Sequence record: OR861626.1 | Direction: 5' to 3' (one strand) | Source of the DNA: Escherichia phage phiA2-1 | DNA length: 44,857 nucleotides | Part shown: in pieces, positions 601 to 41,733 of the stretch | Layout of the letters: every line of letters starts with the position of its first letter | Position numbering within the stretch: position 1 is the first letter of the stretch | Program-made: the position numbers and the translations under genes | The notes under the pieces: generated by a model | What the model was told of the DNA's origin: nothing | The model's database searches: none | What the model saw: the letters and a program-made list of their open reading frames with translations, nothing else

Positions 601-1702
601 AATGCGTTACGACAGCGCTAAAGTTAAAGCGCGATTTGACGAAAACGGCTTTCTGGTAGACACGCCAGTTGTTGCTCGTGTAGGCGTGCAATCATACTAC
701 CTGCCAGATGGCTCGGAACGACGCGAATTTAGGCCAGCATCAGAGGTCTTTAAAGCAGATTCACTTGCCAGTTATCAGGGCAAGCCGATTACATTGGGTC
801 ACGTGTTTGTTAACTCTGATAACGCTAAAGATGTGGTTATTGGAGCAGTTTCAGGCGCAGCATTGCGTCAGGATTCAAATGTTGTGGTTCCACTAACAGT
901 TTATGATAAGGAGTCAATCGAGAAAGCTAAATCTGGCCTTGCCGCCGAGTTATCTGTAGGTTACTCAACTGTTGATGTTGAATCTCCAGGCTGGGGTAGC
1001 AATGATACTGGAGAGTACAAGTTAGATGGAGAGTATGATTCTCAAAACGACATTCCGCCTGACTGGGTTCGTTTTGATGCACTGCAAACTAACATTATTG
1101 TTAATCACGTCGCAATGGTATACAAAGGTCGGGCAGGTGTTGCAAAATTGAATATGGACGCAGAACAGGAAAACCCGTATACTGACAGCGTTGATTCTAT
1201 TAAAGAGGATGTTAAAGAAATGGTTAAGATTAAACTGGATGGCGCACAGGAGTTCGAAATCGCTCCAGAAGTTGCCGCACACATTGAAGCTATTAAAAAG
1301 GATGCAGTTGACGCTAAAACCAAAGCTGACTGCATTGAAGCTGAGCGTGACGCACTTAAAGCTAAAGTTGACGCGATGCCTGCTGAAATTGAGAAAGCTG
1401 TCAAGGCTGCTAAAGCTGATTCCGAAGCACTTGCCGCACTGGTTACTGTAGCCGCTGAAGCTGGTGTTAAGACTGATGGTCTGGATACTAAGGGCATCAA
1501 AGTAGCATACGTTAAAGAAGTTTCTGGCCTTGATGTTTCCGAGAAGTCTGACGCATACATCGACGCAGCGTTCGACATTGCCAAAGATTCTGATAAAATG
1601 GCTGAAGTTCGCAAAGCAACCGCAGCTTCCGACAAATCTGACGCTACCGACGCACCTAATAAATTAGACCCGCGCGCTCGTCTGGCTAAAATTAAAAAGT
1701 AA
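590..1702 (+). CDS. Head morphogenesis protein (scaffold/prohead-protease-like; Ala/Lys-rich coiled-coil C-terminal half)
   Basis: 370-aa ORF directly after portal; AAGGAGG 9 nt upstream of TTG start; C-terminal region of low complexity typical of scaffolding proteins. Confidence 0.4.
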   Translation: MKAKMRYDSAKVKARFDENGFLVDTPVVARVGVQSYYLPDGSERREFRPASEVFKADSLASYQGKPITLGHVFVNSDNAKDVVIGAVSGAALRQDSNVVVPLTVYDKESIEKAKSGLAAELSVGYSTVDVESPGWGSNDTGEYKLDGEYDSQNDIPPDWVRFDALQTNIIVNHVAMVYKGRAGVAKLNMDAEQENPYTDSVDSIKEDVKEMVKIKLDGAQEFEIAPEVAAHIEAIKKDAVDAKTKADCIEAERDALKAKVDAMPAEIEKAVKAAKADSEALAALVTVAAEAGVKTDGLDTKGIKVAYVKEVSGLDVSEKSDAYIDAAFDIAKDSDKMAEVRKATAASDKSDATDAPNKLDPRARLAKIKK

Positions 1703-1713
1703 GGAGATAGACA

Positions 1714-2208
1714 ATGGCAATTCGTTCTGTAGCACTGGCAGGCATGGTAGCTGATACTTCCCTGTATAATATCGATGGCGCTTGCGTTGTTGGCGGCACG
1801 GATCCAATCAATGTTGGTGTAGCCGTTTCCGTAACCGAAGACCCTGCAATTGATGGTCACAAGGTTGTTAGCGCAGTAAATAAAGAAGGTAGCGCTTACG
1901 GTGTGGTCGTTCGCTCTCATTACGAGACTCCAGATGGCACCGCTAAAGCTAAGGAGGCTGTTAACGTAATGACAGCTGGTCGCATTTGGATGAAGGCAGC
2001 AGCAGCAATTACCGCCGCAAATCGCGCTGTTGGTAAACCAGTATCTGTTAATGCCGCAGGTTTGGTTGTTAATGAAGCATCCGCTCGTGCAGGAGCTTTC
2101 ACTACCGGATGGACTTTTGCTGGCGGCTACATCGCTAACACTGGTAGTGACCCGCAAAACCTTAGCGTAGATGGCGCTCTGGTTGAGGTTCAGGTCAAGC
2201 AGAAGTAA
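1714..2208 (+). CDS. Putative head structural/decoration protein
   Basis: 164-aa ORF with RBS (AAGGAG), between scaffold-like and capsid genes; Gly/Ala/Val-rich. Confidence 0.3.
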   Translation: MAIRSVALAGMVADTSLYNIDGACVVGGTDPINVGVAVSVTEDPAIDGHKVVSAVNKEGSAYGVVVRSHYETPDGTAKAKEAVNVMTAGRIWMKAAAAITAANRAVGKPVSVNAAGLVVNEASARAGAFTTGWTFAGGYIANTGSDPQNLSVDGALVEVQVKQK

Positions 2209-2227
2209 TAAATATCTCAGCATAAAT

Positions 2228-2252
2228 AAACCTCCTTCGGGAGGTTTTTTTT
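2228..2252 (+). terminator. Rho-independent terminator
   Basis: GC hairpin AAACCTCC-TTCG-GGAGGTTT followed by T8. Confidence 0.55.
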
Positions 2253-2308
2253 GTGATCAAATCACGCCTATGTTATATTTAAACCTCACTTAATAAAGGG
2301 TATTAATT

Positions 2309-2881
2309 ATGGCTTATACCGAAGTTAAGGCTATCAGTGCAGATAGCGAACGATTCAATACACTGCTTCAAGATGCCATCGATGCTGGTTTTCAGCCGGT
2401 AAGTAAAATCACGGTAAATGGCTCTCAGTCATATTCCGTCGTTGTCGCGAAAGGTGCCGACAGTTCGATCACAAATGCAAAGGTGATCACCTCCACCAAT
2501 ATGCGCAAGCTGTTCGAAGCTATTGAAGCTGCATCTGATGACGGCTTCACCATTGACACATCAAACCTGAGCCTTACTGCCGGTCAGTTCTTTGCTTATG
2601 CATATAAAGGCAGTGTTGGCGGTTCTGTTTCTGTGGCGTGGGGAGACGTAACTGGCAAGCCAACCACTTTTGCGCCAATTGTTGGCGCTGGCGCTACTGA
2701 CGCAATGCCAGGTAACAAGTTTGTTGCTGGCGCAGCAGTTGATAAAGTTGGCGACCAGACTGTGACTGGCGCTGATGCAGGAGAGGTGGCAGAAACAGCT
2801 ACAAAAGCTGTTAACGCGGTAGCTGCCAAGTTAAATGAACTTCTCGAACAGCTGCGAGTCACCAAGATCATTGCGGGCTAA
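2309..2881 (+). CDS. Hypothetical structural protein
   Basis: 190-aa ORF in head gene block. Confidence 0.3.
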   Translation: MAYTEVKAISADSERFNTLLQDAIDAGFQPVSKITVNGSQSYSVVVAKGADSSITNAKVITSTNMRKLFEAIEAASDDGFTIDTSNLSLTAGQFFAYAYKGSVGGSVSVAWGDVTGKPTTFAPIVGAGATDAMPGNKFVAGAAVDKVGDQTVTGADAGEVAETATKAVNAVAAKLNELLEQLRVTKIIAG

Positions 2882-14804: not shown

Positions 14805-17800
14805 ATGGCACAAATGATCAAAACAAACATGAGGCTTTGTGATATGGCTGAAGAGATTAAGATTTATGGTGCCAAGGGTGGTAGCCAAAAGCAGCATCAA
14901 CCAGTGGAGCAGGAAGATAACCTAATTTCACTTAACAAGGTTAAGGTTCTTTTGGCGGTTGCTGACGGTGAGGTGGATCCTAACTTCTCATTGAAGGATT
15001 TATACCTTGCTGACGTTCCGGTACAAAATCAGGATGGTAGCTACAACTATGAAGGTGTTCGCGCTGAGTTCCGTGCTGGCACGCAGTATCAGGACTATAT
15101 CGCCGGGCTTGACGGTGCTAACTCAGAGATTCAGGCATCCAGAGAAATCAAGAACGATACCCCGTACATCATTGCAGTTAACAATACTCAGCTTTCAGCA
15201 ATTCGAGTTAAGCTATTCTGGCCTCGACTGGTTAAGCAAGAAAGCAATGGAGACCTGAACGGAACAACCTGCGAGTATGCAATTGACCTTTCTGTTAATG
15301 GTGGCGCTTACCAGGAATACACTCGCGGAGTTGCTAACGGAAAGACCACTACAGGTTACGACCGAAGCATTCGCGTAAACCTTCCGGCAGAATTTGATAG
15401 CGCGCTTGTTCGCATCCGTAAGATTACGCCGGATTCAACAAGTAGCACCCTGGTTAACGGTATGCAGATTACAACCTATCAGGAAGTAATTGACGCTAAA
15501 TTCCGCTATCCGCTTACGGCTCTGGTTTACGTTGAGTTTGGTTCTGACTTGTTCCCTAACGGCATCCCAACAATCTCAATCAAGAAGAGATGGAAGTTGA
15601 TTCAGGTTCCTACAAACTATAACCCTGAAACCAGAACTTATAGCGGCACATGGAATGGTCTATTCAAGATGGCATGGTCAAACAACCCAGCATGGGTTCT
15701 TTATGACCTAGTAACAAACCGCCGTTACGGACTTGACCAGCGAGAGCTGGGTGTAGAGATTGATAAGTGGGGCCTGTACGAAGCTGCACAATTCTGTGAC
15801 CAGATGGTTCCAGATGGCAAGGGTGGCTTAGAGCCGCGTTACCTTTGCGATATGGTTGTACAGAACAAGGTTGAGGCTTACACGCTAATTCGTGATATCT
15901 GTTCAATCTTTCGCGGCCTGACTTTCTATGACGGCGAAAAGATTGGCATCGTGGTTGATAAGCCTCGCAACCCATCTTACATCTTCACCAATGATAACGT
16001 TGTAAACGGATTGTTCAGTCGCACATTTGCCAGCGATAAAAGTCTTTACACCACGGCAAACGTTCAGTTTGATGATGTAGAGAACAACTATCAGCAGGAT
16101 GTTGAGCCAGTATTTGAGCTTGAGGCTACTCGCAGGTTCGGGTTTAATCCAGTCGACCTTACGGCAATTGGCTGCACTCGCAGAAGTGAAGCAAACAGAC
16201 GCGGCAGATGGCTCCTAAAAACCAACCTGAGAAGCGAAACTATCAGCTTCACTACCGGGTTGGAAGGCATGATTCCGATGATTGGCGAGGTTATTGCAGT
16301 TAATGATGCGGCATGGTCGAGCAACTATCAGTTGAACCTTTCCGGCCGCATTGAATCAGTGCAGGGGCTACAGGTTTTTACACCGTTTAAAGTTGACGCA
16401 GCGCCGGGTGACAGAATTCTTCTTAACAAGCCAGACGGAAGCCCGGAGGCAAGAACTATTGCCAGTGTTTCGGAAGACGGCAGAACAATCAACCTTAACA
16501 CTGCTTTCAGTTTTGTAGCTCAGCCAGACACTGTGTTCGCAATTGATAAGGATAACCTTGCGCTTCAGCAGTATGTTGTGACCGGGATTCAAAAGGCAGA
16601 TACTGACGGCTCTGATTCATTTCAGTACACGATTACTGCGGTGGAGTATGACCCTAACAAGTATGACGAGATTGACTACGGCGTTAATATTGTTGACCGT
16701 CCAACTTCAGTCGTAGAGCCTGATAGATTGTCGCCACCTGAGAATTTAACAGTGTCAAGCTACAGCAAGGTTGTTCAAGGATTATCAGTTGAGACGATGG
16801 TTATCGGGTGGGATAAAGCGCCATACGCTAAAACCTACAATGTTCAGTGGAGAAAAGAGAATGGCAACTGGATTAACGTACCAAGAACAGCTAGCACAGA
16901 GGTTGATATCGAAGGTATTTACGCAGGAATTTATGACGTTAGGGTTCGCAGCGTATCAGATACTGAAAACGTGTCTGCCTGGTCTGGTATTGTAACGGTA
17001 TCGCTAACTGGCAAGATTGGTCGCCCATCGGCACCTACGGTTATCACGGCGTCAACTGATGAAGTATTTGGTATCCGTGTTAAATGGGGATTCCCTGAAG
17101 GCTCTGGCGATACTGCTTACACTGAGCTTCAGCAGGTTCCAGATAATGGTGATGGTACTTACAATCCTGATAATGCAAGTTTGCTTACGTTACTTCCTTA
17201 TCCTGCCTACGAATACTGGCATACGCCAATTCAGCCAGGTAAGGTGATTTGGTATCGCGCAAGATTGATTGACAGAATCGGAAATACCTCTGATTGGTCT
17301 AATTTCGCAAGAGGCATGAGTACTGACGACGCAAACATTATCAATGATTTCATCAAGGTTGATATTGAAGGTTCAGAAGGATTCAAATACCTCGAGCAGA
17401 ATGCGATTCAAAAGAATCAGGACATTCAGAATCAAGCTGAGGCAATTATCGAGAACGCACTGGCTAATGATGGCGATGTTCGCAGAATGACAAAGGAGAA
17501 CGGCAAGCGTAAGGCTGAATATGTTCAGGCTGTGAATCTCATAGCCGATGAAACTCAGGCGCGCGTAGAGGCTCTAACGGCCCTTAAGGCGCAGATAGAT
17601 GATGAAGTTGTAGCATCGATTACAGAAGTTCAGACTGCATTAGCCACAGAGACAGAAGCAAGGACTACTGCAGACACGACTCTATCAGCAAGACTTGGTG
17701 AAAATGAGGCGGCTTTAAACCAGAAGCTGGACGCATTCTCTAATGCCACATCGACTGGTGTGCAGTACGGAATTAGTCTTGGCCTGAAATACAATGGACA

Positions 17801-18161
17801 GACTTATTCATCCGGTATGAGCATGGAGCTTGTCGGCACTGGTGACAATGTTCGTAGTCAATTCATTTTTGACGCAAACAGATTCGCTATCAGTAACGGC
17901 ATTGGTTACGGCTCCGGTCAGTGGCAACTCCCCTTCGTTGTCGAGAATGGAAACGTAATCATCAAGAGTGCAGTTATCGGCGATGGCTCAATCAGTAACG
18001 CGAAGATTGGTAACTTTATTCAGTCTAATGACTGGGGTACAAATTCAGGCTGGAGGCTAGATAAGGATGATGGATTGACGCTTAGGGGTTCCGATCGTGG
18101 CAAGATGAGAGTCCTGGACCGGAATGGAGTGGTTAGGGTAAAATTAGGATACTTGGGTTAA
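14805..18161 (+). CDS. Tail tip / host specificity protein (lambda J-like central tail fiber)
   Basis: 1118 aa; strong resemblance to lambda J, e.g. NYNPETRTYSGTWNG...AWVLYDL...RYG...DKWGLYEAAQFCDQMVPDGKGGLEPRY; ATG at 14844 is a plausible alternative start. Confidence 0.8.
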   Translation: MAQMIKTNMRLCDMAEEIKIYGAKGGSQKQHQPVEQEDNLISLNKVKVLLAVADGEVDPNFSLKDLYLADVPVQNQDGSYNYEGVRAEFRAGTQYQDYIAGLDGANSEIQASREIKNDTPYIIAVNNTQLSAIRVKLFWPRLVKQESNGDLNGTTCEYAIDLSVNGGAYQEYTRGVANGKTTTGYDRSIRVNLPAEFDSALVRIRKITPDSTSSTLVNGMQITTYQEVIDAKFRYPLTALVYVEFGSDLFPNGIPTISIKKRWKLIQVPTNYNPETRTYSGTWNGLFKMAWSNNPAWVLYDLVTNRRYGLDQRELGVEIDKWGLYEAAQFCDQMVPDGKGGLEPRYLCDMVVQNKVEAYTLIRDICSIFRGLTFYDGEKIGIVVDKPRNPSYIFTNDNVVNGLFSRTFASDKSLYTTANVQFDDVENNYQQDVEPVFELEATRRFGFNPVDLTAIGCTRRSEANRRGRWLLKTNLRSETISFTTGLEGMIPMIGEVIAVNDAAWSSNYQLNLSGRIESVQGLQVFTPFKVDAAPGDRILLNKPDGSPEARTIASVSEDGRTINLNTAFSFVAQPDTVFAIDKDNLALQQYVVTGIQKADTDGSDSFQYTITAVEYDPNKYDEIDYGVNIVDRPTSVVEPDRLSPPENLTVSSYSKVVQGLSVETMVIGWDKAPYAKTYNVQWRKENGNWINVPRTASTEVDIEGIYAGIYDVRVRSVSDTENVSAWSGIVTVSLTGKIGRPSAPTVITASTDEVFGIRVKWGFPEGSGDTAYTELQQVPDNGDGTYNPDNASLLTLLPYPAYEYWHTPIQPGKVIWYRARLIDRIGNTSDWSNFARGMSTDDANIINDFIKVDIEGSEGFKYLEQNAIQKNQDIQNQAEAIIENALANDGDVRRMTKENGKRKAEYVQAVNLIADETQARVEALTALKAQIDDEVVASITEVQTALATETEARTTADTTLSARLGENEAALNQKLDAFSNATSTGVQYGISLGLKYNGQTYSSGMSMELVGTGDNVRSQFIFDANRFAISNGIGYGSGQWQLPFVVENGNVIIKSAVIGDGSISNAKIGNFIQSNDWGTNSGWRLDKDDGLTLRGSDRGKMRVLDRNGVVRVKLGYLG

Positions 18162-18202: not shown

Positions 18203-18574
18203 ATGGCTGGTTTGTATGGTTGGGAGATGTACGATTCTGCGGGGCGGCTTGTAGCTGACAATAGCAGCATAATGAGCAGGAGGCTATTCACTTATAGCGT
18301 GCCACTGATAAGGGCTTTATCTGCAAACATACCATGGGAAGTCTCATTTAATGTTAACTTCTCAAATGGAACGCCTTATGCGCATTGCAATACCAGAACA
18401 GGGGTGGTGGTCCCTGCATCTACTAACTGGTATCCAGTATCACCTGATATAATAATATCTGGAAATGCAGTTACACTCAGGTATACAAACAGGCATGTTT
18501 CCTATCCGGACGATCTTGGGTACATACTTGCAGTTGGTGGTGTTGATGTTCACTTAGGAGTTTATAATAAATGA
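18203..18574 (+). CDS. Hypothetical protein (tail-associated by position)
   Basis: 123-aa ORF downstream of J; stop overlaps next start. Confidence 0.3.
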   Translation: MAGLYGWEMYDSAGRLVADNSSIMSRRLFTYSVPLIRALSANIPWEVSFNVNFSNGTPYAHCNTRTGVVVPASTNWYPVSPDIIISGNAVTLRYTNRHVSYPDDLGYILAVGGVDVHLGVYNK

Positions 18575-19368
18575 GTGATTATGGTGTTGAACTAATAAAT
18601 GACTATGGTTTAAAGGTTGCTGACGCAGAGGATGTAAATTACGTACTAAGAAGTTCTGGTACATTTAATGATTCAAATTTCTACTCATATGCAAACTCCA
18701 CATCTGCAATTAGCCTCATGACCACAGGAATGAATTCGCCTCTTCTATTTCTAAAGATGAACGAAAGTAGGTCAAGGATAAGCCAGAAGCCTGGAGTTAA
18801 CAAAATATCACCTGATTTTGTTAACCCAAATACCACAATAACAAAGACAAGCATAGACCTATTCAAGTGGTGGAACATACCGCTAGGAACTGTAGAGTAT
18901 TACATATTTGACAAGTGGATCCCGCCAGAAAGAAGTGATTATGGAATGCAGATATTTAATGAATCTGGTTCTATAATCTTTGATTCTGGCTGGTACTTCC
19001 TCAAACTTAGGGATGTGCTATGGCTTGATCCAAGTTATCCAAACCATTCAGATCAGGAAGGTGGTAGTAACTGGACTAACGTCGGGAATATTGTCAACTC
19101 CGCGAACGTATCAAACTCAGCATTATCAATGCCTGTTGGTAGGGGGTGGGTTGAAACATCATTGCAGGGTGGGTACTACTATAATGAATGCTGTCACCTT
19201 GACTCATCCGGTAATCTATTTATATCCATAATACCTACAGGTATATACCTTGATGTTTCACCAACTGGCGGCTGGGTTGGCAATATGAGGACGCAAGTTA
19301 TGGTTTGCGACACCTCGAGGCTGCCTCTTAATTACAATCCAGTTGAGATAAGAAAGGAAAACAAATAA
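18571..19368 (+). CDS. Hypothetical protein, Asn/Ser/Gly/Trp/Tyr-rich (tail-associated by position)
   Basis: 265-aa ORF, last gene of the plus-strand late block. Confidence 0.3.
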   Translation: MSDYGVELINDYGLKVADAEDVNYVLRSSGTFNDSNFYSYANSTSAISLMTTGMNSPLLFLKMNESRSRISQKPGVNKISPDFVNPNTTITKTSIDLFKWWNIPLGTVEYYIFDKWIPPERSDYGMQIFNESGSIIFDSGWYFLKLRDVLWLDPSYPNHSDQEGGSNWTNVGNIVNSANVSNSALSMPVGRGWVETSLQGGYYYNECCHLDSSGNLFISIIPTGIYLDVSPTGGWVGNMRTQVMVCDTSRLPLNYNPVEIRKENK

Positions 19369-19390
19369 AAATAAGGCCCTTAATGGGCCT
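19362..19390. terminator. Bidirectional terminator-like hairpin
   Basis: AAGGCCC-TTAAT-GGGCCTT between convergent genes. Confidence 0.4.
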
Positions 19391-19565
19391 TCTTGTTAAA
19401 ACAATATCCAGCTGGTAAAACCGAATAAAGATTTTGATTTACCTCTCCATTGCTGTATTCACAACCTCTAATTGTAACTGAGTAGTCACTGATAAGAACT
19501 ATAGTTCTTTCACCGCCTGAACAACCAGCTAAAATCATTGCAGTGATAACGATTAATTTTTTCAT
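19380..19565 (-). CDS. Small outer-membrane lipoprotein, Cor-like superinfection-exclusion candidate
   Basis: 61 aa; lipoprotein signal MKKLIVITAMILAGC (lipobox LAGC); last gene of a minus-strand operon. Confidence 0.45.
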   Translation of the reverse strand: MKKLIVITAMILAGCSGGERTIVLISDYSVTIRGCEYSNGEVNQNLYSVLPAGYCFNKKAH

Positions 19566-19566
19566 C

Positions 19567-19671
19567 TTAGAACCCTTTAAAGTTGCTAGCCAGCATCAGA
19601 AGCCATACGAAGAAACCAGTAGCTGCTACACCGAAGATTGCAGAGATTACGTTAGTAGTTAAGTTAGTCAT
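19567..19671 (-). CDS. Small hydrophobic membrane peptide (34 aa), not in ORF track
   Basis: Hand translation MTNLTTNVISAIFGVAATGFFVWLLMLASNFKGF; AAGGAA RBS; stop 1 nt before the lipoprotein ATG. Confidence 0.3.
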   Translation of the reverse strand: MTNLTTNVISAIFGVAATGFFVWLLMLASNFKGF

Positions 19672-19689
19672 TTTGTATTCCTTAGTAAG

Positions 19690-19755
19690 TGTGTTTCGTT
19701 TCGATGGAAAGATAATACCGCATCCTTGCGATAAGTGTTTAGCAATTAGTGCTAT
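19690..19755 (-). promoter_or_regulatory. Promoter-like cassette (minus orientation)
   Basis: Minus strand reads AATAGCACTAATTGCTAAA, 22 nt, TATTAT, then CATCGAAACGAAACACAC leader before the small peptide gene. Confidence 0.5.
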
Positions 19756-20024
19756 TAGTGAATATCCTCACAGCCAGGAATGGACTTAACATTGTAATGC
19801 CGATAAGCGAATATCAAGTTAAGAGCCTGCTCGACCGTGCATTTAAGGGCGCCAGAGATAATAAATGAAGACTCAGTGATGTGATTTATTAACTCATTTC
19901 TGACAGGGTCGTCATCTGCTAGTAACTCTGCGCGCTTAACAAAAAGAGCGTTGTTTACCAGGATTGTCACAACCTTTTCATTGAGCTCTTTCTTCGCTTT
20001 TGCAATCTCTTTCTCGTAGTTCAT
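19755..20024 (-). CDS. Hypothetical protein
   Basis: 89-aa ORF; stop codon lies inside the downstream cassette box. Confidence 0.35.
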   Translation of the reverse strand: MNYEKEIAKAKKELNEKVVTILVNNALFVKRAELLADDDPVRNELINHITESSFIISGALKCTVEQALNLIFAYRHYNVKSIPGCEDIH

Positions 20025-20166
20025 CTTATACCGCCTTGTTTTCGATTTGCATTACGCTATTAACTGACATCATAACATTCCGATTCTGCTGCTGAGTAGT
20101 GGTTACTACATGCTGCATTTTATTGCAGTCACTTTAAATGACCACATCTTATTGTGGTCATTAGTG

Positions 20167-20832
20167 CTACTTATCTTTAAGTAGCAACTTGATATCAATT
20201 CCTAGATTATTCTCAATCAATCCAGTCAGTGCACCTACCTTTTCCTTAAGTGCGAAGCACTGTGTTTCATACTTGAATCTCAACTCCATCTCATCAGAGC
20301 GACTTGACCAGCACTGCCGAGCCTCGCACGCTAGCTCATCAATCTTCTTGTCAAGTTCCTTATCTGACAGGGTGATTTCAGTAATTCGCTGCTCAGCTAC
20401 GATTCTCTGGATCAAGTGAGCATTCTGCGCTTGCAGGTATCCATTCTTCATTCTTTCCTCTTTAAGTTCATCAATGCTTACCATCTGACTGATTACTTCC
20501 GCTTGCTTGTTGATGGTGCTTTGCATTTCTTTAAGCTTAGCAAGCACTGCGCGACGAACGAACTTTGATTCTCTCATCCCAATCAAAAGCATCTGTTCCA
20601 TATTGAGCACTGGTGAGTTGATTGACTTTCTATAACCTCCTCTACCCTCACTCTTGATTACGAAACTTTCGTAGTCAAACTCAAACCCTTCAAGCTCATC
20701 CTCTATTCTCTCAACAAAGTCATTGTGTCGAACATTGGACTCCCCAGCGATCAACCTCGCTGGGTTGATAACTTCATTTAAAAACTGATAACTATTCATT
20801 TTTACGTCTTCATTAAGTAATGCTAAGTTCAT
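20167..20832 (-). CDS. Rha-family-like regulatory protein with coiled-coil C-terminal half (putative)
   Basis: Track ORF to 20856; likely start ATG 20832; SNVRHNDFVERIEDEL and MLLIGMRESKFVRRAVLAKL resemble Rha motifs. Confidence 0.4.
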   Translation of the reverse strand: MNLALLNEDVKMNSYQFLNEVINPARLIAGESNVRHNDFVERIEDELEGFEFDYESFVIKSEGRGGYRKSINSPVLNMEQMLLIGMRESKFVRRAVLAKLKEMQSTINKQAEVISQMVSIDELKEERMKNGYLQAQNAHLIQRIVAEQRITEITLSDKELDKKIDELACEARQCWSSRSDEMELRFKYETQCFALKEKVGALTGLIENNLGIDIKLLLKDK

Positions 20833-20856
20833 TTTCGTCTCTCTTTTGTTTTTCAT

Positions 20857-21467
20857 TCCTAAGATTTGAGGAGTTAACTAAGTTCTTTTCCTCAATTTGA
20901 GGAGGAGTTGACAGCACCATTGCCGCCACGCGCCTAAATATACCTAAAGATAGCCAGTTGTCTTTAGCAAATCGTGCTATTTATCGACAATTTCACCATA
21001 AATCACAGTTACACGTAACCGATGTAACTCGATGTATACAATCTCATCCGCGGGAAATGATATACGCGCTGTTACGCCAATTTACGCATTGGTTACATTA
21101 AAATATCTATATATATCAACCTTTTACTCTTATTATTATTATTATATATATTACTGTGTATATCATGTAACTACTTCTATAGAGTGTTCCGGTTATAATT
21201 TTAATATCATGTGGATTTATACAGTATTGCGCGGCAGCTATACCAATGCACCCTCAGCGAGAAACGGCATACACGATATACACGATGTTTACATTGAGCT
21301 ATGGCTGGCTTGAGATGCCAAAAAGCGTAACTAGTGCCAATGCCTACACGAAATTACAAAGATTCACGCGTAAACTTAAATCAACGATTTGCAAAACCAA
21401 TTGGACTGGTTACGGTGCTGAATATATAGTTACCTCATCGAAAGCAATCAACCAGAGAGATATATAA
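20857..21467. promoter_or_regulatory. Large AT-rich divergent control region with (TTA)n and (TA)n tracts
   Basis: 611 nt without a credible ORF; (TTA)5 near 21127..21145; TATATATAT; palindrome CCTCAAATTGAGG; separates minus-strand block from plus-strand early block. Confidence 0.4.
20920..20981 (-). promoter_or_regulatory. Promoter-like cassette (minus orientation) for the 20832 gene
   Basis: Minus strand AATAGCACGATTTGCTAAAG, 22 nt, TATATT. Confidence 0.45.
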
Positions 21468-26486: not shown

Positions 26487-26960
26487 TTAATCTTTAGCTT
26501 TTCGTGCTGCCTCGTTAGCAATCTTATTCTTGCGCCATGGTCGACATGATGGCTTAGTTGCTAGTTCGGCTTCGGTAACTACGCGAAGCATATGGCGTTT
26601 CTTGCATCGAAGTGTTAGCGGCTTTCCATTCCCGTCGAATTGCAAGTCAGGTCGGCAGAATGTAGCTCGAAAACCTTCCTTATTTCGCTTGTACGCATTG
26701 TGAGCTTTCTGCGCACCTCGAGCTGAAATCATGCCGCGATCAAACCACTGCTCTACAGTCTGGTGAGATACATTTAACTGTTTTGCGATGTTCGCCTTTG
26801 TGCCGTAGAAATCAAGAACCATCTCCAGACGTGCCCTGAGGCCAGCCCTCACCTCATCCTTTAATACGTAGTAACCTGAAGGTCGTTTGCGCTGCTTCTT
26901 GTCTTGTGTGCGTACCGTTCCGTTATTACCGTTAATTGTTCTCTTGTCAATTTCACACAT
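26487..26960 (-). CDS. Putative HTH DNA-binding protein
   Basis: 157 aa, basic; HTH-like segment TKANIAKQLNVSHQTVEQWFDRG. Confidence 0.4.
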   Translation of the reverse strand: MCEIDKRTINGNNGTVRTQDKKQRKRPSGYYVLKDEVRAGLRARLEMVLDFYGTKANIAKQLNVSHQTVEQWFDRGMISARGAQKAHNAYKRNKEGFRATFCRPDLQFDGNGKPLTLRCKKRHMLRVVTEAELATKPSCRPWRKNKIANEAARKAKD

Positions 26961-30919: not shown

Positions 30920-32056
30920 ATGGCAGTAGCAAAAATTAGCAACGAGCAGTTGACAGAAGAATTGAGAAATGGCCTAACAAACAAGGCGATTGCGGAGAAG
31001 TATGGCATGAACATTCGCAATGTTGAGCTTCGTCGCAGCAAGTTGGCCAAGAGTGGACTATTCGGGCACGGAAATGAAGGTATCAAGAAGCTAGTGCCTG
31101 ATGGCTATATGGTAAAAGGCACTTCGACAATGATTGATGCGGAAGGGAGAGAGAAGCTGCGCTGGGTTAAGACTTCCATTGATTCAGAAAAACAAGAAGA
31201 GATGCTTCAGCAGATTGTTCAGGCCCTTACTGATGAGGTTCCTCGCGAGGCTCCGAAGCCGCTCAGTGAATCAAGCTATGAGGACACTTTAAGTCTCTAC
31301 CCTGTATTTGATATGCACATTGGCGCGATGGCTCACCATGCGGAGTGCGGAGAAAACTACAGCACAGAAATTGCTGAGCGAGTACTTAACCAGTACTTTG
31401 ATTATGCGGTCGCAAAAGCTCCAAATTCATCGAAGGCCGTGTTACTAATTGGGGGTGACTTCTTGCATTCAGATAGTCTGGAGGCTGTGACACCAACAAG
31501 CAGGCACTCATTAGACCAAGATAGTCGATATCATAAGTTAGTCTATGTTGCTGTGCGATCAACTCGCAGAGCTATCAGCAGGATGCTTGATAAGCACAAG
31601 GAGATTGAGGTGCAAATCATCCCAGGCAACCACGATTTAAGTGGTATGATTTGGCTTCGAGCCGCTATGGCCGCTTTTTACATGGATGAGCCGCGCGTAA
31701 ATGTTGATGCTTCACCAGCAGCGCTTCACGTTACACATTTTGGCAAGACGCTTTTGGGTTATTGTCATGGTCATGAGTTGCGTAAGCCTGACACTCGTCT
31801 TTCAACACTTGCGCGAGACCACCGCAAAGCATTTGGTAGTGCTGAGTATGTTTATACACACAGCGGCCATTACCACCATCAGACAGTTACTGAGGGTAAT
31901 TTAGGTATTGATGAGTCGCACGGACAGTTGGGTTGTAAGGATGCGTACAGCGCAAACGGAGGGTATCGTTCTTATCGTCAGGCTTCAGTAATCATCTATA
32001 GCCCAGAGTATGGTGAAGTTGGTCGATTCACTTGCCGTCCTGAAATGTTTAAGTAA
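30920..32056 (+). CDS. Metallophosphoesterase-domain protein with N-terminal HTH-like region
   Basis: Track ORF from 30914; ATG 30920 after AAGGA; GDFLH, GNHD, GHELR, GHYHH motifs; N-terminal LTNKAIAEKYGMNIRNVELRR. Confidence 0.55.
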   Translation: MAVAKISNEQLTEELRNGLTNKAIAEKYGMNIRNVELRRSKLAKSGLFGHGNEGIKKLVPDGYMVKGTSTMIDAEGREKLRWVKTSIDSEKQEEMLQQIVQALTDEVPREAPKPLSESSYEDTLSLYPVFDMHIGAMAHHAECGENYSTEIAERVLNQYFDYAVAKAPNSSKAVLLIGGDFLHSDSLEAVTPTSRHSLDQDSRYHKLVYVAVRSTRRAISRMLDKHKEIEVQIIPGNHDLSGMIWLRAAMAAFYMDEPRVNVDASPAALHVTHFGKTLLGYCHGHELRKPDTRLSTLARDHRKAFGSAEYVYTHSGHYHHQTVTEGNLGIDESHGQLGCKDAYSANGGYRSYRQASVIIYSPEYGEVGRFTCRPEMFK

Positions 32057-32134: not shown

Positions 32135-32275
32135 ATGATTCTAATTGGTATACTGACCGCTTTTTTCTATTATGCTACAGGTCTAACCTTTTTGATGTCC
32201 TTAGGTGCAGCCATAGGTACTTACTTCGTATCTGCTTTACTTGCCTTAATCGTGGGGGCACTGCGCAATCGCTAA
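32135..32275 (+). CDS. Small hydrophobic membrane peptide (46 aa), not in ORF track
   Basis: Hand translation MILIGILTAFFYYATGLTFLMSLGAAIGTYFVSALLALIVGALRNR; GAGAGAGG RBS-like leader. Confidence 0.3.
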   Translation: MILIGILTAFFYYATGLTFLMSLGAAIGTYFVSALLALIVGALRNR

Positions 32276-32291
32276 AATGAGAGAGAAAAAA

Positions 32292-32474
32292 ATGAACAAC
32301 GTTAAACTTAAGTGTGTATCAAACTCATCTAAGTCACTTGATTTTATCACTGGTGACACCTATGAGGCTCAGAATCGTGGCGATGGATTGTACAACGTGA
32401 CCACATCAAAAGGTTGGTGCTTGATTTGCCCACTTGACGGTTATTTCGTTAAGTTTGCTGAAGTTTCAGAATAA
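32292..32474 (+). CDS. Hypothetical small protein (paralog family)
   Basis: Track ORF from 32277; ATG 32292 has the better RBS; similar to 29958 and 32492 ORFs. Confidence 0.4.
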   Translation: MNNVKLKCVSNSSKSLDFITGDTYEAQNRGDGLYNVTTSKGWCLICPLDGYFVKFAEVSE

Positions 32475-32491: not shown

Positions 32492-32665
32492 ATGACTAAA
32501 TTATACTGCGTTAAAAACAACTCAAAAACCCTTCCGTTTACCGAAAACCAGCCATATAGCGGAGAGGCTCTTGGCAGTGGTTACTACAAGATTTACGGCG
32601 ATGACATGACGCACATCCTTGCGCCTATTGATGGCTCTTTAGTGGAATTTATTATCGCAGATTAA
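32492..32665 (+). CDS. Hypothetical small protein (paralog family), not in ORF track
   Basis: Hand translation MTKLYCVKNNSKTLPFTENQPYSGEALGSGYYKIYGDDMTHILAPIDGSLVEFIIAD. Confidence 0.35.
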   Translation: MTKLYCVKNNSKTLPFTENQPYSGEALGSGYYKIYGDDMTHILAPIDGSLVEFIIAD

Positions 32666-32792: not shown

Positions 32793-33008
32793 ATGAGGGA
32801 AGTACTTAACGCTGCTACGGCATCAACTGGCGGGGCAGCTGTAACTGGCGCCGCAACTGGTCAAATGACCATCGCAATAATCAGTATTATAGCTCTTGTC
32901 GTTTTTGGGTTATGGGGCGCTTACTGGAAGTTTAAGGATAGCCAGGCAATTAGACGGGCGCTTGAATCAGGAGACCTAAAGAAGGCAATAAAGATAAGGA
33001 GTAAGTAA
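32793..33008 (+). CDS. Holin (pinholin-like)
   Basis: 71 aa; Gly/Ala-rich weak TM segment then strong TM (MTIAIISIIALVVFGLWGAYW); charged C-terminus; directly before endolysin. Confidence 0.6.
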   Translation: MREVLNAATASTGGAAVTGAATGQMTIAIISIIALVVFGLWGAYWKFKDSQAIRRALESGDLKKAIKIRSK

Positions 33009-33493
33009 TGAAGCAGAAGCTTGTGATTAGTGCAGCGACGGCAGCGGCAATATACATCGCAGCGCCGATTATTGAGCTTGTTGAAGGTGTTGAGTACAGG
33101 CCTTATAAGGATATAGCAGGGGTGTGGACAATTTGCAGTGGGATAACTGGCCCAGACGTTATTATCGGAAAGACATACACAAAATCAGAGTGTAGGAGAT
33201 TGTTAGAAAAGCACATTCAGATTCACGGAAAGTATGTGCAGGATGCAGTTACCTATCCAATAGCACCAGAAACAATGGCGGCTTTAATCAGCTTTAGCTA
33301 CAACGTTGGCGGTTCCGCGATGAGGAAGTCAACGGCTGTCAGGTTGATTAACCAGGGTAAGATTGAGGAAGGATGCAAGGCTCTCGGGATGTGGAATAAA
33401 GCTATGGTTAATGGCAAGCTGAAGGTTATCAAGGGCCTAGCAAACAGGCGTAACGAGGAAATCAAATTATGCTTAAGCGGGGTGGGTAAATGA
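33008..33493 (+). CDS. SAR endolysin (T4-lysozyme-like muramidase)
   Basis: N-terminal Ala/Ile-rich SAR-like segment; catalytic-type spacing E-x8-D-x5-T (ELVEGVEYRPYKDIAGVWT). Confidence 0.7.
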   Translation: MKQKLVISAATAAAIYIAAPIIELVEGVEYRPYKDIAGVWTICSGITGPDVIIGKTYTKSECRRLLEKHIQIHGKYVQDAVTYPIAPETMAALISFSYNVGGSAMRKSTAVRLINQGKIEEGCKALGMWNKAMVNGKLKVIKGLANRRNEEIKLCLSGVGK

Positions 33494-33876
33494 GGGCTGT
33501 GGTAATTGCTGCGGTAATTCTGCTTTCCGGCTGTTCGGCAACATCTGCACTGACCGGGTTAATTGGCAGCAAACCGGAGATAAGTGCTCAGGCAGGTGCG
33601 GAGAATAACAAGGTTGGCGTTGGCCTGACTAACAAGGTTGATTCAAGTTCCAGCGCAAAGGCTGAAGTGAAGAACTCAAAGGTTGACACCCTTGATAGCT
33701 CGAGCGGAAAGAAGACTGCTGACAACTCAATCAAAGCGTCAACAATCACGGCAGAGAAGATTGAAATCACCAATAATGATTCGTCTGCCATACCGTGGAT
33801 TGGAAGCGGAATCATGTTGTGCATCATCATCATTCTGCTTTTAGTTATATTCAGGAAAAACAAAAAAGCCCCGTAA
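33490..33876 (+). CDS. Unimolecular spanin (lipoprotein signal plus C-terminal TMD)
   Basis: Lipobox LLSGC at N-terminus; C-terminal TM IMLCIIIILLLVIF; last gene of lysis cassette. Confidence 0.6.
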   Translation: MRAVVIAAVILLSGCSATSALTGLIGSKPEISAQAGAENNKVGVGLTNKVDSSSSAKAEVKNSKVDTLDSSSGKKTADNSIKASTITAEKIEITNNDSSAIPWIGSGIMLCIIIILLLVIFRKNKKAP

Positions 33877-41655: not shown

Positions 41656-41733
41656 GCTCTGCTAGCTCAATTGGATAGAAGCAACGACCTTCTAAGTCGT
41701 AGGTTACTGGTTCGAATCCAGTGCGGAGCGCCA
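41656..41733 (+). tRNA. tRNA-Arg (anticodon UCU), CCA encoded
   Basis: Hand-folded cloverleaf: acceptor GCTCTGC/GCGGAGC (one G-U), D-arm with GG, anticodon stem ACGAC/GTCGT with loop CTTCTAA, T-arm ACTGG-TTCGAAT-CCAGT, 3' GCCA. Confidence 0.7.

What the first reader, a model, noticed from the sequence alone, without database searches (positions are those of the whole stretch)
19380..20024. Minus-strand moron-like operon: cassette, 34-aa membrane peptide, then Cor-like lipoprotein
A 34-aa hydrophobic peptide (19567..19671, not in the ORF track) is translationally coupled (1-nt gap) to a 61-aa lipoprotein with lipobox LAGC. Both are driven by a promoter-like cassette and end at a terminator, opposite in orientation to the adjacent tail genes. 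Small outer-membrane lipoproteins in this position (Cor, Llp) block the phage receptor after infection. The coupled membrane peptide is an unexplained partner and could make this a two-component exclusion module.
Basis: partly seen in the sequence, partly recalled or inferred. Interest (0 to 1): 0.6.

Follow-up and report, generated by a model that had tools for sequence, protein, structure and literature searches.

The report
Receptor-blocking lipoprotein operon with conserved micro-protein
A T1-like coliphage carries a short operon for a small outer-membrane lipoprotein that most likely blocks its own receptor (FepA) after infection, and the 34-residue membrane peptide in front of it is a real, conserved but uncharacterised phage gene that is not a dedicated partner of the lipoprotein.

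Summary
On the minus strand, a repeated promoter-like cassette precedes a 34-aa membrane-peptide ORF (19567..19671). One base later comes a 61-aa lipoprotein ORF (19380..19565, lipobox LAGC), followed by an intrinsic terminator. The region 19300-20200 is 100% identical to Rtpvirus phage IME253, whose published receptor is FepA.

The lipoprotein occupies the slot used for receptor-cognate superinfection-exclusion lipoproteins such as Cor, Llp and Rtp45. Its mature domain is an orphan, found only in the phages that share this receptor-binding locus. Similarity to real Cor genes stops exactly at the lipobox cysteine, so it is not demonstrably a Cor-family member. It most likely works like one, against FepA.

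The peptide is a genuine gene. Its length is conserved, dN/dS is 0.1-0.5, and the C-terminus is invariant (LA(S/G)NFxGF). It is always the first ORF after a cassette, but three different genes follow it in different lineages: cor, a standalone SH3 gene, or dam. T1 and Rtp lack it. The "two-component exclusion module" idea is therefore not supported.

The cassette is the 21-nt direct repeat already described in phage TLS.

Verdict: a new member of a known kind, plus an unstudied micro-protein family. Interest is moderate.

The parts
19738..19756 (-). Direct repeat AATAGCACTAATTGCTAAA, containing the dyad TAGCA-N5-TGCTA. This is the 5' block of the repeated promoter-like cassette.
   Evidence: 12 copies against 0.04 expected. 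It matches the TLS repeat aaATAGCACnnnTTGnTAAAA (PMC11447400).
19716..19733 (-). Short hairpin (CGCAaggaTGCG core) in the 20-nt spacer between the repeat and the -10-like hexamer.
   Evidence: Flagged as terminator-like. Many but not all cassette copies carry a hairpin here.
19712..19717 (-). -10-like hexamer TATTAT. It lies 22 nt downstream of TTGCTA, too far for a normal -35/-10 pair.
   Evidence: The spacing was read from the sequence.
19694..19706 (-). Conserved leader motif CATCGAAACGAAA, which probably lies at or near the 5' end of the transcript.
   Evidence: Present in most cassette copies of the window and in relatives.
19679..19683 (-). Shine-Dalgarno AAGGA for the peptide ORF, 7 nt before the ATG.
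   Evidence: Conserved in Sd1, Phleasolo and MM01.
19567..19671 (-). 34-aa single-pass membrane micro-protein, a Drexlerviridae-wide family with the conserved C-terminus LA(S/G)NF(K/N)GF.
19524..19565 (-). Lipoprotein signal peptide MKKLIVITAMILAG. At nucleotide level it is shared with bona fide cor genes.
   Evidence: Similarity ends at the lipobox Cys.
19380..19523 (-). Mature lipoprotein (47 aa, from the Cys15 codon) plus the stop codon. It is an orphan domain with two further Cys (C35, C55) and Ser at +2. It is the putative FepA-directed exclusion protein.
   Evidence: Receptor from PMC6499177.
19363..19391 (-). Intrinsic terminator (AAGGCCC-ATTAA-GGGCCTT followed by a T run). It overlaps the last codons of the lipoprotein and abuts the end of the convergent 265-aa gene.
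   Evidence: sequence.
18571..19368 (+). 265-aa protein of the receptor-specificity locus downstream of J. It is inherited together with the mature lipoprotein domain.
   Evidence: 100% identical only in IME253, ZL19, TR3 and Rao1. These are the same phages that carry the lipoprotein. It has a weak link to the T1 gp31-type family phrog_425.
18203..18574 (+). 123-aa first gene of the receptor-specificity locus.
   Evidence: Homologous pair in Klebsiella phage VAC2.

Best explanation
This is a short accessory transcription unit of a virulent T1-like phage (Rtpvirus, IME253 group).

**Transcription unit.** A copy of the family-wide repeat cassette precedes a bicistronic message that ends at an intrinsic terminator. 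The cassette has three blocks: the repeat with its dyad centred near -42, a -10-like TATTAT, and the conserved leader CATCGAAACGAAA.

**Second cistron (lipoprotein).** The precursor is exported, lipidated at Cys15 and, with Ser at +2, sorted by the Lol pathway to the inner leaflet of the outer membrane. This step is inferred. There it most likely binds the periplasmic side of FepA, the receptor of this phage. Binding would make FepA unusable for the phage's receptor-binding protein, as Llp does for FhuA and Rtp45 for LptD. The result would be exclusion of superinfecting phages and protection of progeny from adsorbing to debris.

**Origin of the lipoprotein.** Its receptor-specific mature domain arrived together with the receptor-binding genes as one exchangeable module. 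The recombination joint lies at the lipobox.

**First cistron (peptide).** It encodes a genuine 34-aa inner-membrane micro-protein that is conserved across Drexlerviridae. It travels as the first gene behind a cassette and has been placed in front of cor, SH3 or dam in different lineages. It therefore acts independently of receptor identity. Its own function is unknown. My best guess is a general envelope or inner-membrane role, and its tight coupling also delivers ribosomes to the downstream gene.
For: **Anatomy.**

**Identity and position.** The region 19300-20200 is 100% identical to IME253, ZL19 and TR3. The unit lies directly after J (phrog_31) and two receptor-locus genes. This is the same layout as T1 gp33-gp32-gp31-cor.

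**Receptor.** FepA and TonB dependence of IME253 were shown by knockout and complementation (PMC6499177; cited in BASEL).

**Precedent.** Cognate exclusion lipoproteins are encoded in this locus:
- BASEL
- Llp and Cor (PMC9586334)
- the Rtp45-LptDE structure (PMC12685063)
- Cor locus analysis (PMC13164509)

**Co-inheritance.** The lipoprotein and the 265-aa protein are found in exactly the same five records. The lipoprotein is otherwise unique among 5.8 billion proteins.

**Breakpoint.** Similarity to real cor genes ends at the lipobox.

**Peptide is coding.**
- Homologues occur in about 150 records.
- It keeps 34 codons, with dN/dS 0.07-0.5 and saturated dS.
- It has invariant G14, W23, L27, A28, F31, G33 and F34.

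**Peptide is independent of cor.**
- dam context.
- SH3 context.
- cor context.
- Absent from T1 and Rtp.

**Cassette.**; TLS paper.
Against: - No experiment shows exclusion by this lipoprotein.
- Its mature domain has no significant similarity to Cor. Against a local Cor HMM it scores only 4.7 bits, with 13 of 1000 shuffles as good.
- It has no match to any solved structure by sequence.
- The AlphaFold model is unusable, with pLDDT 45.
- Two Klebsiella phages with 47-49% homologues of the receptor-locus protein showed no match to this lipoprotein, and VAC2 has no room for a gene in that slot. The lipoprotein is therefore not obligatory for that locus type.
- Lipidation and outer-membrane sorting are inferred from sequence rules only.
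- The promoter status of the cassette is unproven, because the TTGCTA block is 22 nt from the -10-like hexamer.
- The peptide's function and topology are not established.
Confidence: 0.6

Rival explanations
1. One reading: the peptide and the lipoprotein form a two-component exclusion module. The inner-membrane peptide would be a required partner of the outer-membrane lipoprotein, for example for its maturation, stability or signalling.
For: - The two ORFs are 1 nt apart in one transcript.
- The peptide-then-lipoprotein arrangement recurs in IME253, Sd1, Sf12, Phleasolo, JulesPiccard, BUCT-XGG-1 and MM01.
Against: - Most carriers of the peptide (120 of about 152 records are Klebsiella phages) appear to have it in front of dam. 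All 10 Webervirus/Klebsiella-type loci whose context was examined do. Others have it in front of SH3.
- T1 cor has no such ORF. Rtp45 uses the peptide's start codon instead of following it.
- The peptide does not co-vary with the receptor-specific domain.
Confidence: 0.1
2. The peptide ORF is mainly a translated leader. Its product would be unimportant. Its translation would open the mRNA and deliver ribosomes to the downstream gene, or would target the message to the membrane.
For: - It is always the first ORF after a cassette.
- It is always within -11 to +10 nt of the next start codon, whatever that gene is.
- The window has an unrelated small hydrophobic ORF in the analogous first position before its SH3 genes.
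Against: - There is amino-acid-level constraint: dN/dS is well below 1, and synonymous changes occur inside the invariant C-terminal motif (GGG/GGT/GGA/GGC for Gly33, TTC/TTT for Phe34).
- Length and motif are conserved across subfamilies.
- cor, dam and SH3 in T1 are expressed without it.
Confidence: 0.15
3. The pair is a lysis device, a two-component spanin. The peptide would be a minimal inner-membrane subunit and the lipoprotein the outer-membrane subunit.
For: - A membrane protein followed by an outer-membrane lipoprotein resembles the Rz/Rz1 gene order.
- The lipoprotein precursor hits phrog_6073 'Rz-like spanin' at E=1e-4.
Against: - That hit covers the signal peptide region and disappears for the mature domain.
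- The peptide has almost no extramembrane part, so it cannot reach across the periplasm.
- The window already has a complete lysis cassette with holin, endolysin and a T1-type spanin at 32793..33876.
- The unit sits in the receptor locus, not the lysis locus.
Confidence: 0.02
4. The lipoprotein does something other than receptor blocking, for example it is a decayed remnant or a general envelope factor. Its location would then be a historical accident.
For: - The mature domain is an orphan with no detectable family.
- The related Klebsiella-phage locus examined (VAC2) lacks a lipoprotein.
Against: - The ORF is intact and identical in five records from four different isolates.
- It has a correct lipobox, two extra cysteines as in Llp and Cor, its own Shine-Dalgarno sequence and a terminator.
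- Its distribution matches that of the receptor-binding gene exactly.
Confidence: 0.13

Closest known systems
Cor superinfection-exclusion lipoprotein of T1, phi80 and N15 (PHROG 1119)
   Same: - Same genomic slot: convergent to and directly after the J / receptor-specificity genes, ending at a shared terminator.
- Similar small size, with a lipobox.
- The signal-peptide DNA is homologous, about 85% to Sd1 cor.
- Two extra cysteines.
- Weak motif echo YSV...G...AGYxF.
   Different: - The mature domain is not significantly similar (no PHROG hit; 4.7 bits against a Cor HMM) and is 12-13 residues shorter.
- The phage uses FepA rather than FhuA.
Llp of phage T5 (FhuA) and Rtp45 of phage Rtp (LptDE), the structurally characterised exclusion lipoproteins
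   Same: - A small periplasm-facing outer-membrane lipoprotein encoded next to the receptor-binding gene.
- The expected mechanism is binding to the periplasmic face of the receptor, which prevents receptor-binding-protein docking.
- Rtp belongs to the same genus as this phage. rtp45 sits behind the same cassette.
   Different: - No sequence similarity.
- Different receptor.
- In Rtp the lipoprotein gene starts at the peptide's own start codon and shares its first ~10 codons. Here the peptide is a separate complete ORF.
21-nt direct repeats of phage TLS (aaATAGCACnnnTTGnTAAAA), also noted in T1, Rtp and Rogue1
   Same: Same sequence, same orientation with transcription, and a similar distance from start codons. 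The repeat starts 85 nt upstream here, against about 76 nt in TLS.
   Different: Nothing essential differs. Here I add three points: the repeat contains a dyad (TAGCA-N5-TGCTA), it lies at a fixed 20 nt from a -10-like hexamer, and it is followed by a conserved CATCGAAACGAAA leader.
Small phage inner-membrane exclusion or host-interaction proteins (T4 Imm, HK97 gp15)
   Same: A small hydrophobic phage protein expressed from an accessory unit. It is a possible functional analogy for the 34-aa peptide.
   Different: - No sequence relation.
- Those proteins are larger, and I recall them as having more than one membrane segment (not checked here).
- No functional data exist for the peptide.

Membership tests
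Cor lipoprotein family (PHROG 1119) | N-terminal lipoprotein signal peptide with lipobox | tested here: met
   MKKLIVITAMILAG|C, lipobox LAGC.
Cor lipoprotein family (PHROG 1119) | Sequence homology of the mature domain to Cor | tested here: not met
   The full precursor hits PHROG 1119 at E=7e-5. The mature domain alone gives no hit, while Sd1 Cor mature gives 3.7e-20. Against a local Cor HMM it scores 4.7 bits, and 13 of 1000 shuffles score as high. This is marginal at best.
Cor lipoprotein family (PHROG 1119) | Encoded convergently just after the J-distal receptor-specificity genes | tested here: met
   The window layout is the same as T1 gp33-32-31-cor, Sd1 and JulesPiccard.
Receptor-cognate exclusion lipoproteins of siphophages (functional class: Llp, Cor, Rtp45) | Co-inherited with a particular receptor-binding allele | tested here: met
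   The lipoprotein and the 265-aa locus protein occur at 100% identity in the same records only: IME253 (two records), ZL19, TR3 and Rao1. The breakpoint is at the lipobox.
Receptor-cognate exclusion lipoproteins of siphophages (functional class: Llp, Cor, Rtp45) | Outer-membrane, periplasm-facing localisation | not testable with these tools
   There is only the +2 Ser sorting rule (established knowledge of the Lol pathway). No experiment.
Receptor-cognate exclusion lipoproteins of siphophages (functional class: Llp, Cor, Rtp45) | Binds and inactivates the phage's own receptor | not testable with these tools
   The receptor is known to be FepA for IME253 (PMC6499177). Binding is untested. The single-sequence AlphaFold model is unusable.
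   The peptide occurs with dam or SH3 instead. cor occurs without the peptide in T1. The peptide is absent from Rtp.
   The peptide is 88% identical between the window and Sd1, while the mature lipoproteins have no detectable similarity.
T1-like phage 21-nt direct repeat (TLS DR) | Consensus aaATAGCACnnnTTGnTAAAA, intergenic, co-oriented with the downstream gene, roughly 76 nt from the start codon | tested here: met
   AATAGCACTAATTGCTAAA at 19756..19738, starting 85 nt before the ATG. There are 12 strict copies in the window against 0.04 expected. Literature.
Two-component spanin (Rz/Rz1 type) | An inner-membrane subunit with a long periplasmic domain, an outer-membrane lipoprotein, and a location in the lysis cassette | tested here: not met
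   The peptide is 34 aa with about 5 extramembrane residues at each end. The lysis cassette, with its own spanin (phrog_1804, E=2.6e-46), lies at 32793..33876.

The most novel reading that the evidence does not exclude
The 34-aa peptide could define a new family of phage inner-membrane micro-proteins with a receptor-independent envelope function. Candidates are blocking genome entry, or a TonB/energy-dependent step, of superinfecting phages, or engaging a host periplasmic or membrane protein through its invariant aromatic C-terminus (…LASNFxGF-COOH). Behind cor it would then form a second, generic layer of exclusion. The repeat cassettes would act as recombination joints that let this gene, and the receptor modules, hop between loci.
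Probability: 0.12. Interest if true: 0.65.

Novelty: new member of a known kind. Interest (0 to 1): 0.38.

Why it matters
- If the lipoprotein blocks FepA, it would be a sequence-unrelated example of lipoprotein-mediated inactivation of a TonB-dependent transporter.
- That would be useful for understanding how such small proteins shut receptors from the periplasmic side. It would also help in designing phage cocktails and phage-resistant production strains. IME253-type phages are fermentation contaminants.
- The peptide is a widely conserved gene, often unannotated or mis-annotated, in about 150 sequenced Drexlerviridae, including most Klebsiella Webervirus phages considered for therapy. Knowing what it does would fill a gap in a heavily used phage family.
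- The exact breakpoints illustrate how receptor modules are exchanged. They lie at the lipobox, at the 5' end of the repeat in Rao1, and about 10 codons into the peptide ORF in Rtp.

Tried and rejected
- **Pfam and PHROGs on the peptide.** Pfam was run on the window peptide, and PHROGs on it plus five relatives. Nothing was significant.
- **Exhaustive phmmer of the peptide against 1.84 billion representatives.** It returned one true relative and one spurious hit. Gene callers rarely-aa ORFs, so protein databases under-sample this family. The word-indexed search refuses queries under 40 aa. A 51-aa mis-extended relative as query gave only 8 clusters.
- **Test for a conserved helical face in the peptide.** Not significant: 3208 of 10000 shuffles were as good. 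I make no such claim.
- **AlphaFold2 of the mature lipoprotein without an alignment.** pLDDT was 45, so I ran no fold search.
- **PDB sequence search.** Only a chance hit.
- **Rfam scan of the whole window.** Only a tRNA, and no known RNA family for the cassette or leader.
- **Literature search for the peptide sequence.** No paper found.
- **Rtp genome paper (PMC1367250).** Not held, so I could not read it.
- **Spanin reading.** Rejected.
- **Reading TTGCTA in the repeat as an ordinary -35.** Rejected, because it lies 22 nt from the -10-like hexamer in the copies where I counted the spacing.

Full report
**1. What is in the sequence**

Read on the minus strand, the region contains the following, in order.
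- The stop codon of an 89-aa ORF (19755..20024).
- The 19-nt block AATAGCACTAATTGCTAAA (19756..19738).
- A 20-nt spacer with a small hairpin.
- TATTAT (19717..19712).
- The motif CATCGAAACGAAA (19706..19694).
- AAGGA, then 7 nt later an ATG at 19671 that opens a 34-codon ORF: MTNLTTNVISAIFGVAATGFFVWLLMLASNFKGF.
- One base after its TAA, an ATG at 19565 that opens a 61-codon ORF: MKKLIVITAMILAGCSGGERTIVLISDYSVTIRGCEYSNGEVNQNLYSVLPAGYCFNKKAH.

The consensus scan finds an intrinsic terminator (AAGGCCC-ATTAA-GGGCCTT followed by a T run) at 19391..19373, overlapping the last codons. The tail genes on the plus strand end at 19368.

**2. Where the window comes from**

The 901 bases 19300-20200 are 100% identical to Escherichia phages vB_EcoS-IME253, ZL19 and TR3, and partly to Rao1. 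IME253 is classified as Drexlerviridae, Braunvirinae, Rtpvirus.

The genes upstream on the plus strand are the central tail fibre J (14805..18161, phrog_31) and two proteins of 123 and 265 aa. This is the layout of T1: gp33 (J), gp32, gp31, then the convergent cor gene.

- BASEL paper: PMC8594841.
- A 2026 preprint describes receptor-specific protein families for FhuA, BtuB, LptD and YncD at this locus.

IME253 itself was shown by knockout and complementation to use FepA and to need TonB (PMC6499177).

**3. The lipoprotein**

The precursor has a canonical lipobox (LAGC) and Ser at +2. By the established sorting rule this predicts an outer-membrane lipoprotein. Beyond the lipidated Cys15, the mature part has two further cysteines (C35, C55). 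Llp and Cor likewise carry an intramolecular disulphide (PMC9586334).

By sequence, the mature domain stands alone.
- In 5.8 billion proteins only the identical sequence is found.
- In the phage collection it occurs only in IME253 (two records), ZL19, TR3 and Rao1.
- The PHROG 'Cor' match of the precursor (E=7e-5) comes from the signal peptide. The mature 47 residues give no hit, while the Sd1 Cor mature domain gives 3.7e-20.
- Against a Cor profile I built from five mature sequences it scores 4.7 bits, and 13 of 1000 shuffles do as well. A faint YSV...G...AGYxF echo is all there is.
- It has no PDB relative by sequence.
- The single-sequence AlphaFold model is unusable, with pLDDT 45.

Two comparative facts nevertheless tie it to the receptor locus.
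- The 265-aa locus protein has exactly the same narrow distribution as the lipoprotein.
- Alignment with the cor regions of Sd1, Phleasolo and JulesPiccard shows high nucleotide similarity through the cassette, the peptide ORF and the lipoprotein signal peptide. That similarity collapses at the lipobox cysteine codon.

The mature domain was therefore exchanged together with the receptor-binding genes, as expected for a receptor-cognate exclusion protein.

The mechanism I consider most likely is binding to the periplasmic face of FepA. This rests on the solved Llp-FhuA and Rtp45-LptDE complexes. It is an inference.

**4. The peptide**

A tblastn search finds full-length matches in about 150 phage records: 120 Klebsiella, 20 Escherichia, and others from Shigella, Enterobacter, Pantoea and Citrobacter. 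Every record I opened was Drexlerviridae.

In 13 diverged copies the ORF keeps 34 codons, and other copies have 31-38. Pairwise dN/dS is 0.07-0.5. Synonymous sites are saturated in distant pairs (pS 0.6-0.9 against pN 0.3-0.4). Synonymous variation occurs inside the invariant C-terminal motif.

Invariant positions are G14, W23, L27, A28, F31, G33 and F34. This is a real protein-coding gene. GenBank records either omit it, extend it from an upstream TTG (a 59-aa 'putative lipoprotein' in Phleasolo and 51 aa in JulesPiccard), or annotate it correctly (Rao1 gp39, Sushi gp32).

**5. Is the peptide a partner of the lipoprotein?**

No. In every genome examined it is the first ORF behind a repeat cassette and lies within -11 to +10 nt of the next start codon. 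The next gene differs by lineage.

| Downstream gene | Phages |
|---|---|
| Canonical Cor or the window's lipoprotein | IME253, Sd1, Sf12, Phleasolo, JulesPiccard, BUCT-XGG-1, MM01 |
| Standalone SH3 protein upstream of the holin | IME-JL8, IME347, Ec_L1 and metagenomic contigs |
| Dam methylase | Klebsiella Webervirus (Sushi, StarXobjector and others) |

The SH3 protein itself is described in PMC13164509.

T1 has cor but no such ORF, and neither T1 nor Rtp encodes the peptide anywhere. In Rtp, the LptD-specific lipoprotein gene rtp45 starts at the peptide's own start codon. It shares the cassette, the 5' leader and about the first ten codons (MTNLI...) before diverging. The peptide is 88% identical between the window and Sd1, although the two mature lipoproteins have no detectable similarity.

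The peptide is therefore independent of receptor identity and dispensable for Cor-type genes.

Its function is unknown. A test for a conserved helical face was negative. Conservation instead rises toward the C-terminus, which ends in an aromatic ...NFxGF-COOH. I favour an independent inner-membrane or envelope role, with translational coupling as a side benefit. A pure leader-ORF role is less likely, given the amino-acid constraint.

**6. The cassette**

The strict pattern TAGCACNNNTTGYTAAA occurs 12 times in the window against 0.04 expected. About 17 looser copies all point toward the adjacent downstream ORF.

It is the 21-nt direct repeat already reported for phage TLS: aaATAGCACnnnTTGnTAAAA, 21 copies, about 76 nt before start codons. 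That paper also notes it in T1, Rtp and Rogue1 and leaves its function unresolved (PMC11447400).

I add the following from the window copies.
- The repeat contains a dyad, TAGCA-N5-TGCTA.
- It sits at a fixed distance from a -10-like hexamer. TTGCTA is 22 nt away, so it is not a normal -35. The repeat is centred near -42.
- It is followed by a conserved CATCGAAACGAAA leader.

Whether it is an activator site, an UP-like element or something else cannot be decided here.

The similarity between Rao1 and the window begins exactly at the 5' end of this repeat (19756). That fits cassettes acting as module boundaries.

**7. Rivals**

A spanin reading is excluded. The lysis cassette, with holin, endolysin and a T1-type spanin, lies at 32793..33876, and the peptide has no periplasmic domain.

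A non-exclusion role for the lipoprotein cannot be ruled out. The Webervirus phage VAC2 has a 49% homologue of the 265-aa receptor-locus protein, preceded by a small gene in the position of the 123-aa gene, but no lipoprotein.

**8. Verdict**

The lipoprotein is a new, sequence-orphan member of the known class of receptor-cognate exclusion lipoproteins, most probably directed at FepA. The cassette is already known. Interest is moderate.

Noticed in passing
window, about 17 sites, e.g. 6587, 10597, 20981(-), 22633, 24970, 26972, 29463, 30145, 32055, 36476(-), 37522(-), 40076: The repeat cassette has three blocks: the dyad TAGCA-N5-TGCTA, a -10-like hexamer 20 nt after the repeat, and the leader CATCGAAACGAAA. 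It precedes genes of all functional classes on both strands. The repeat is centred near -42, which would suit a dimeric DNA-binding activator. A conserved helix-turn-helix regulator (phrog_2856) is encoded at 26487..26960.
   Followed up: partly
window 32135..32275 (+): This is a different small hydrophobic ORF (46 aa, MILIGILTAFFYYATG..., phrog_16572, E=2e-4). It is the first ORF after the cassette at 32055 and precedes the SH3 genes. In other Drexlerviridae that position is held by the 34-aa peptide.
   Followed up: partly
window 32277..32474 and 32492..32665 (+): Two tandem copies of the standalone SH3/DUF7244-type gene lie upstream of the holin. The recent KanT1 paper describes this gene but not tandem copies in the sections I read.
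   Followed up: no
L025 (phage Rtp) 27888..27990, minus strand: rtp45, the structurally characterised LptD exclusion lipoprotein, shares the cassette, the 5' leader and its first ~10 codons (MTNLI...) with the 34-aa peptide ORF of JulesPiccard and IME253. The LptD module was therefore grafted into the peptide's start.
   Followed up: partly
L031 (phage Rao1) and window 19756: Nucleotide identity between Rao1 and the window begins exactly at the 5' end of the direct repeat. Upstream, Rao1 has a different gene. This suggests the repeats serve as recombination joints.
   Followed up: partly
L003 (Phleasolo) 2463..2642; L004 (JulesPiccard) 2450..2605; L002 (Sd1) 2538..2642; L032 (MM01) about 1386..1490: The peptide gene is inconsistently annotated in GenBank. 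It is missing in Sd1, MM01, IME253 and IME347. It is extended from an upstream start in Phleasolo (TTG; 59 aa, labelled 'putative lipoprotein') and in JulesPiccard (51 aa).
   Followed up: yes
L029 (Klebsiella phage KshKPC-M) about 1482..2315: The peptide reading frame runs on into the Dam methylase frame without a stop. This is either a frameshift or sequencing error, or a natural fusion.
   Followed up: no
L030 (Klebsiella phage vB_KpnS-VAC2) 1630..2765: This Webervirus phage has a 49% identical homologue of the window's 265-aa receptor-locus protein, preceded by a small gene in the position of the 123-aa gene. No lipoprotein follows. The receptor of that Klebsiella phage might be a FepA-like transporter.
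   Followed up: no
window 19755..20024 (-) and 20167..20856 (-): Upstream of the unit lie an 89-aa ORF with no family match and a 229-aa anti-repressor-like protein (phrog_8235). Another cassette at 20981 lies upstream of them. The stop codon of the 89-aa ORF overlaps the first bases of the repeat.
   Followed up: partly
window 41656..41730 (+): A tRNA gene (Rfam RF00005, 58 bits).
   Followed up: no
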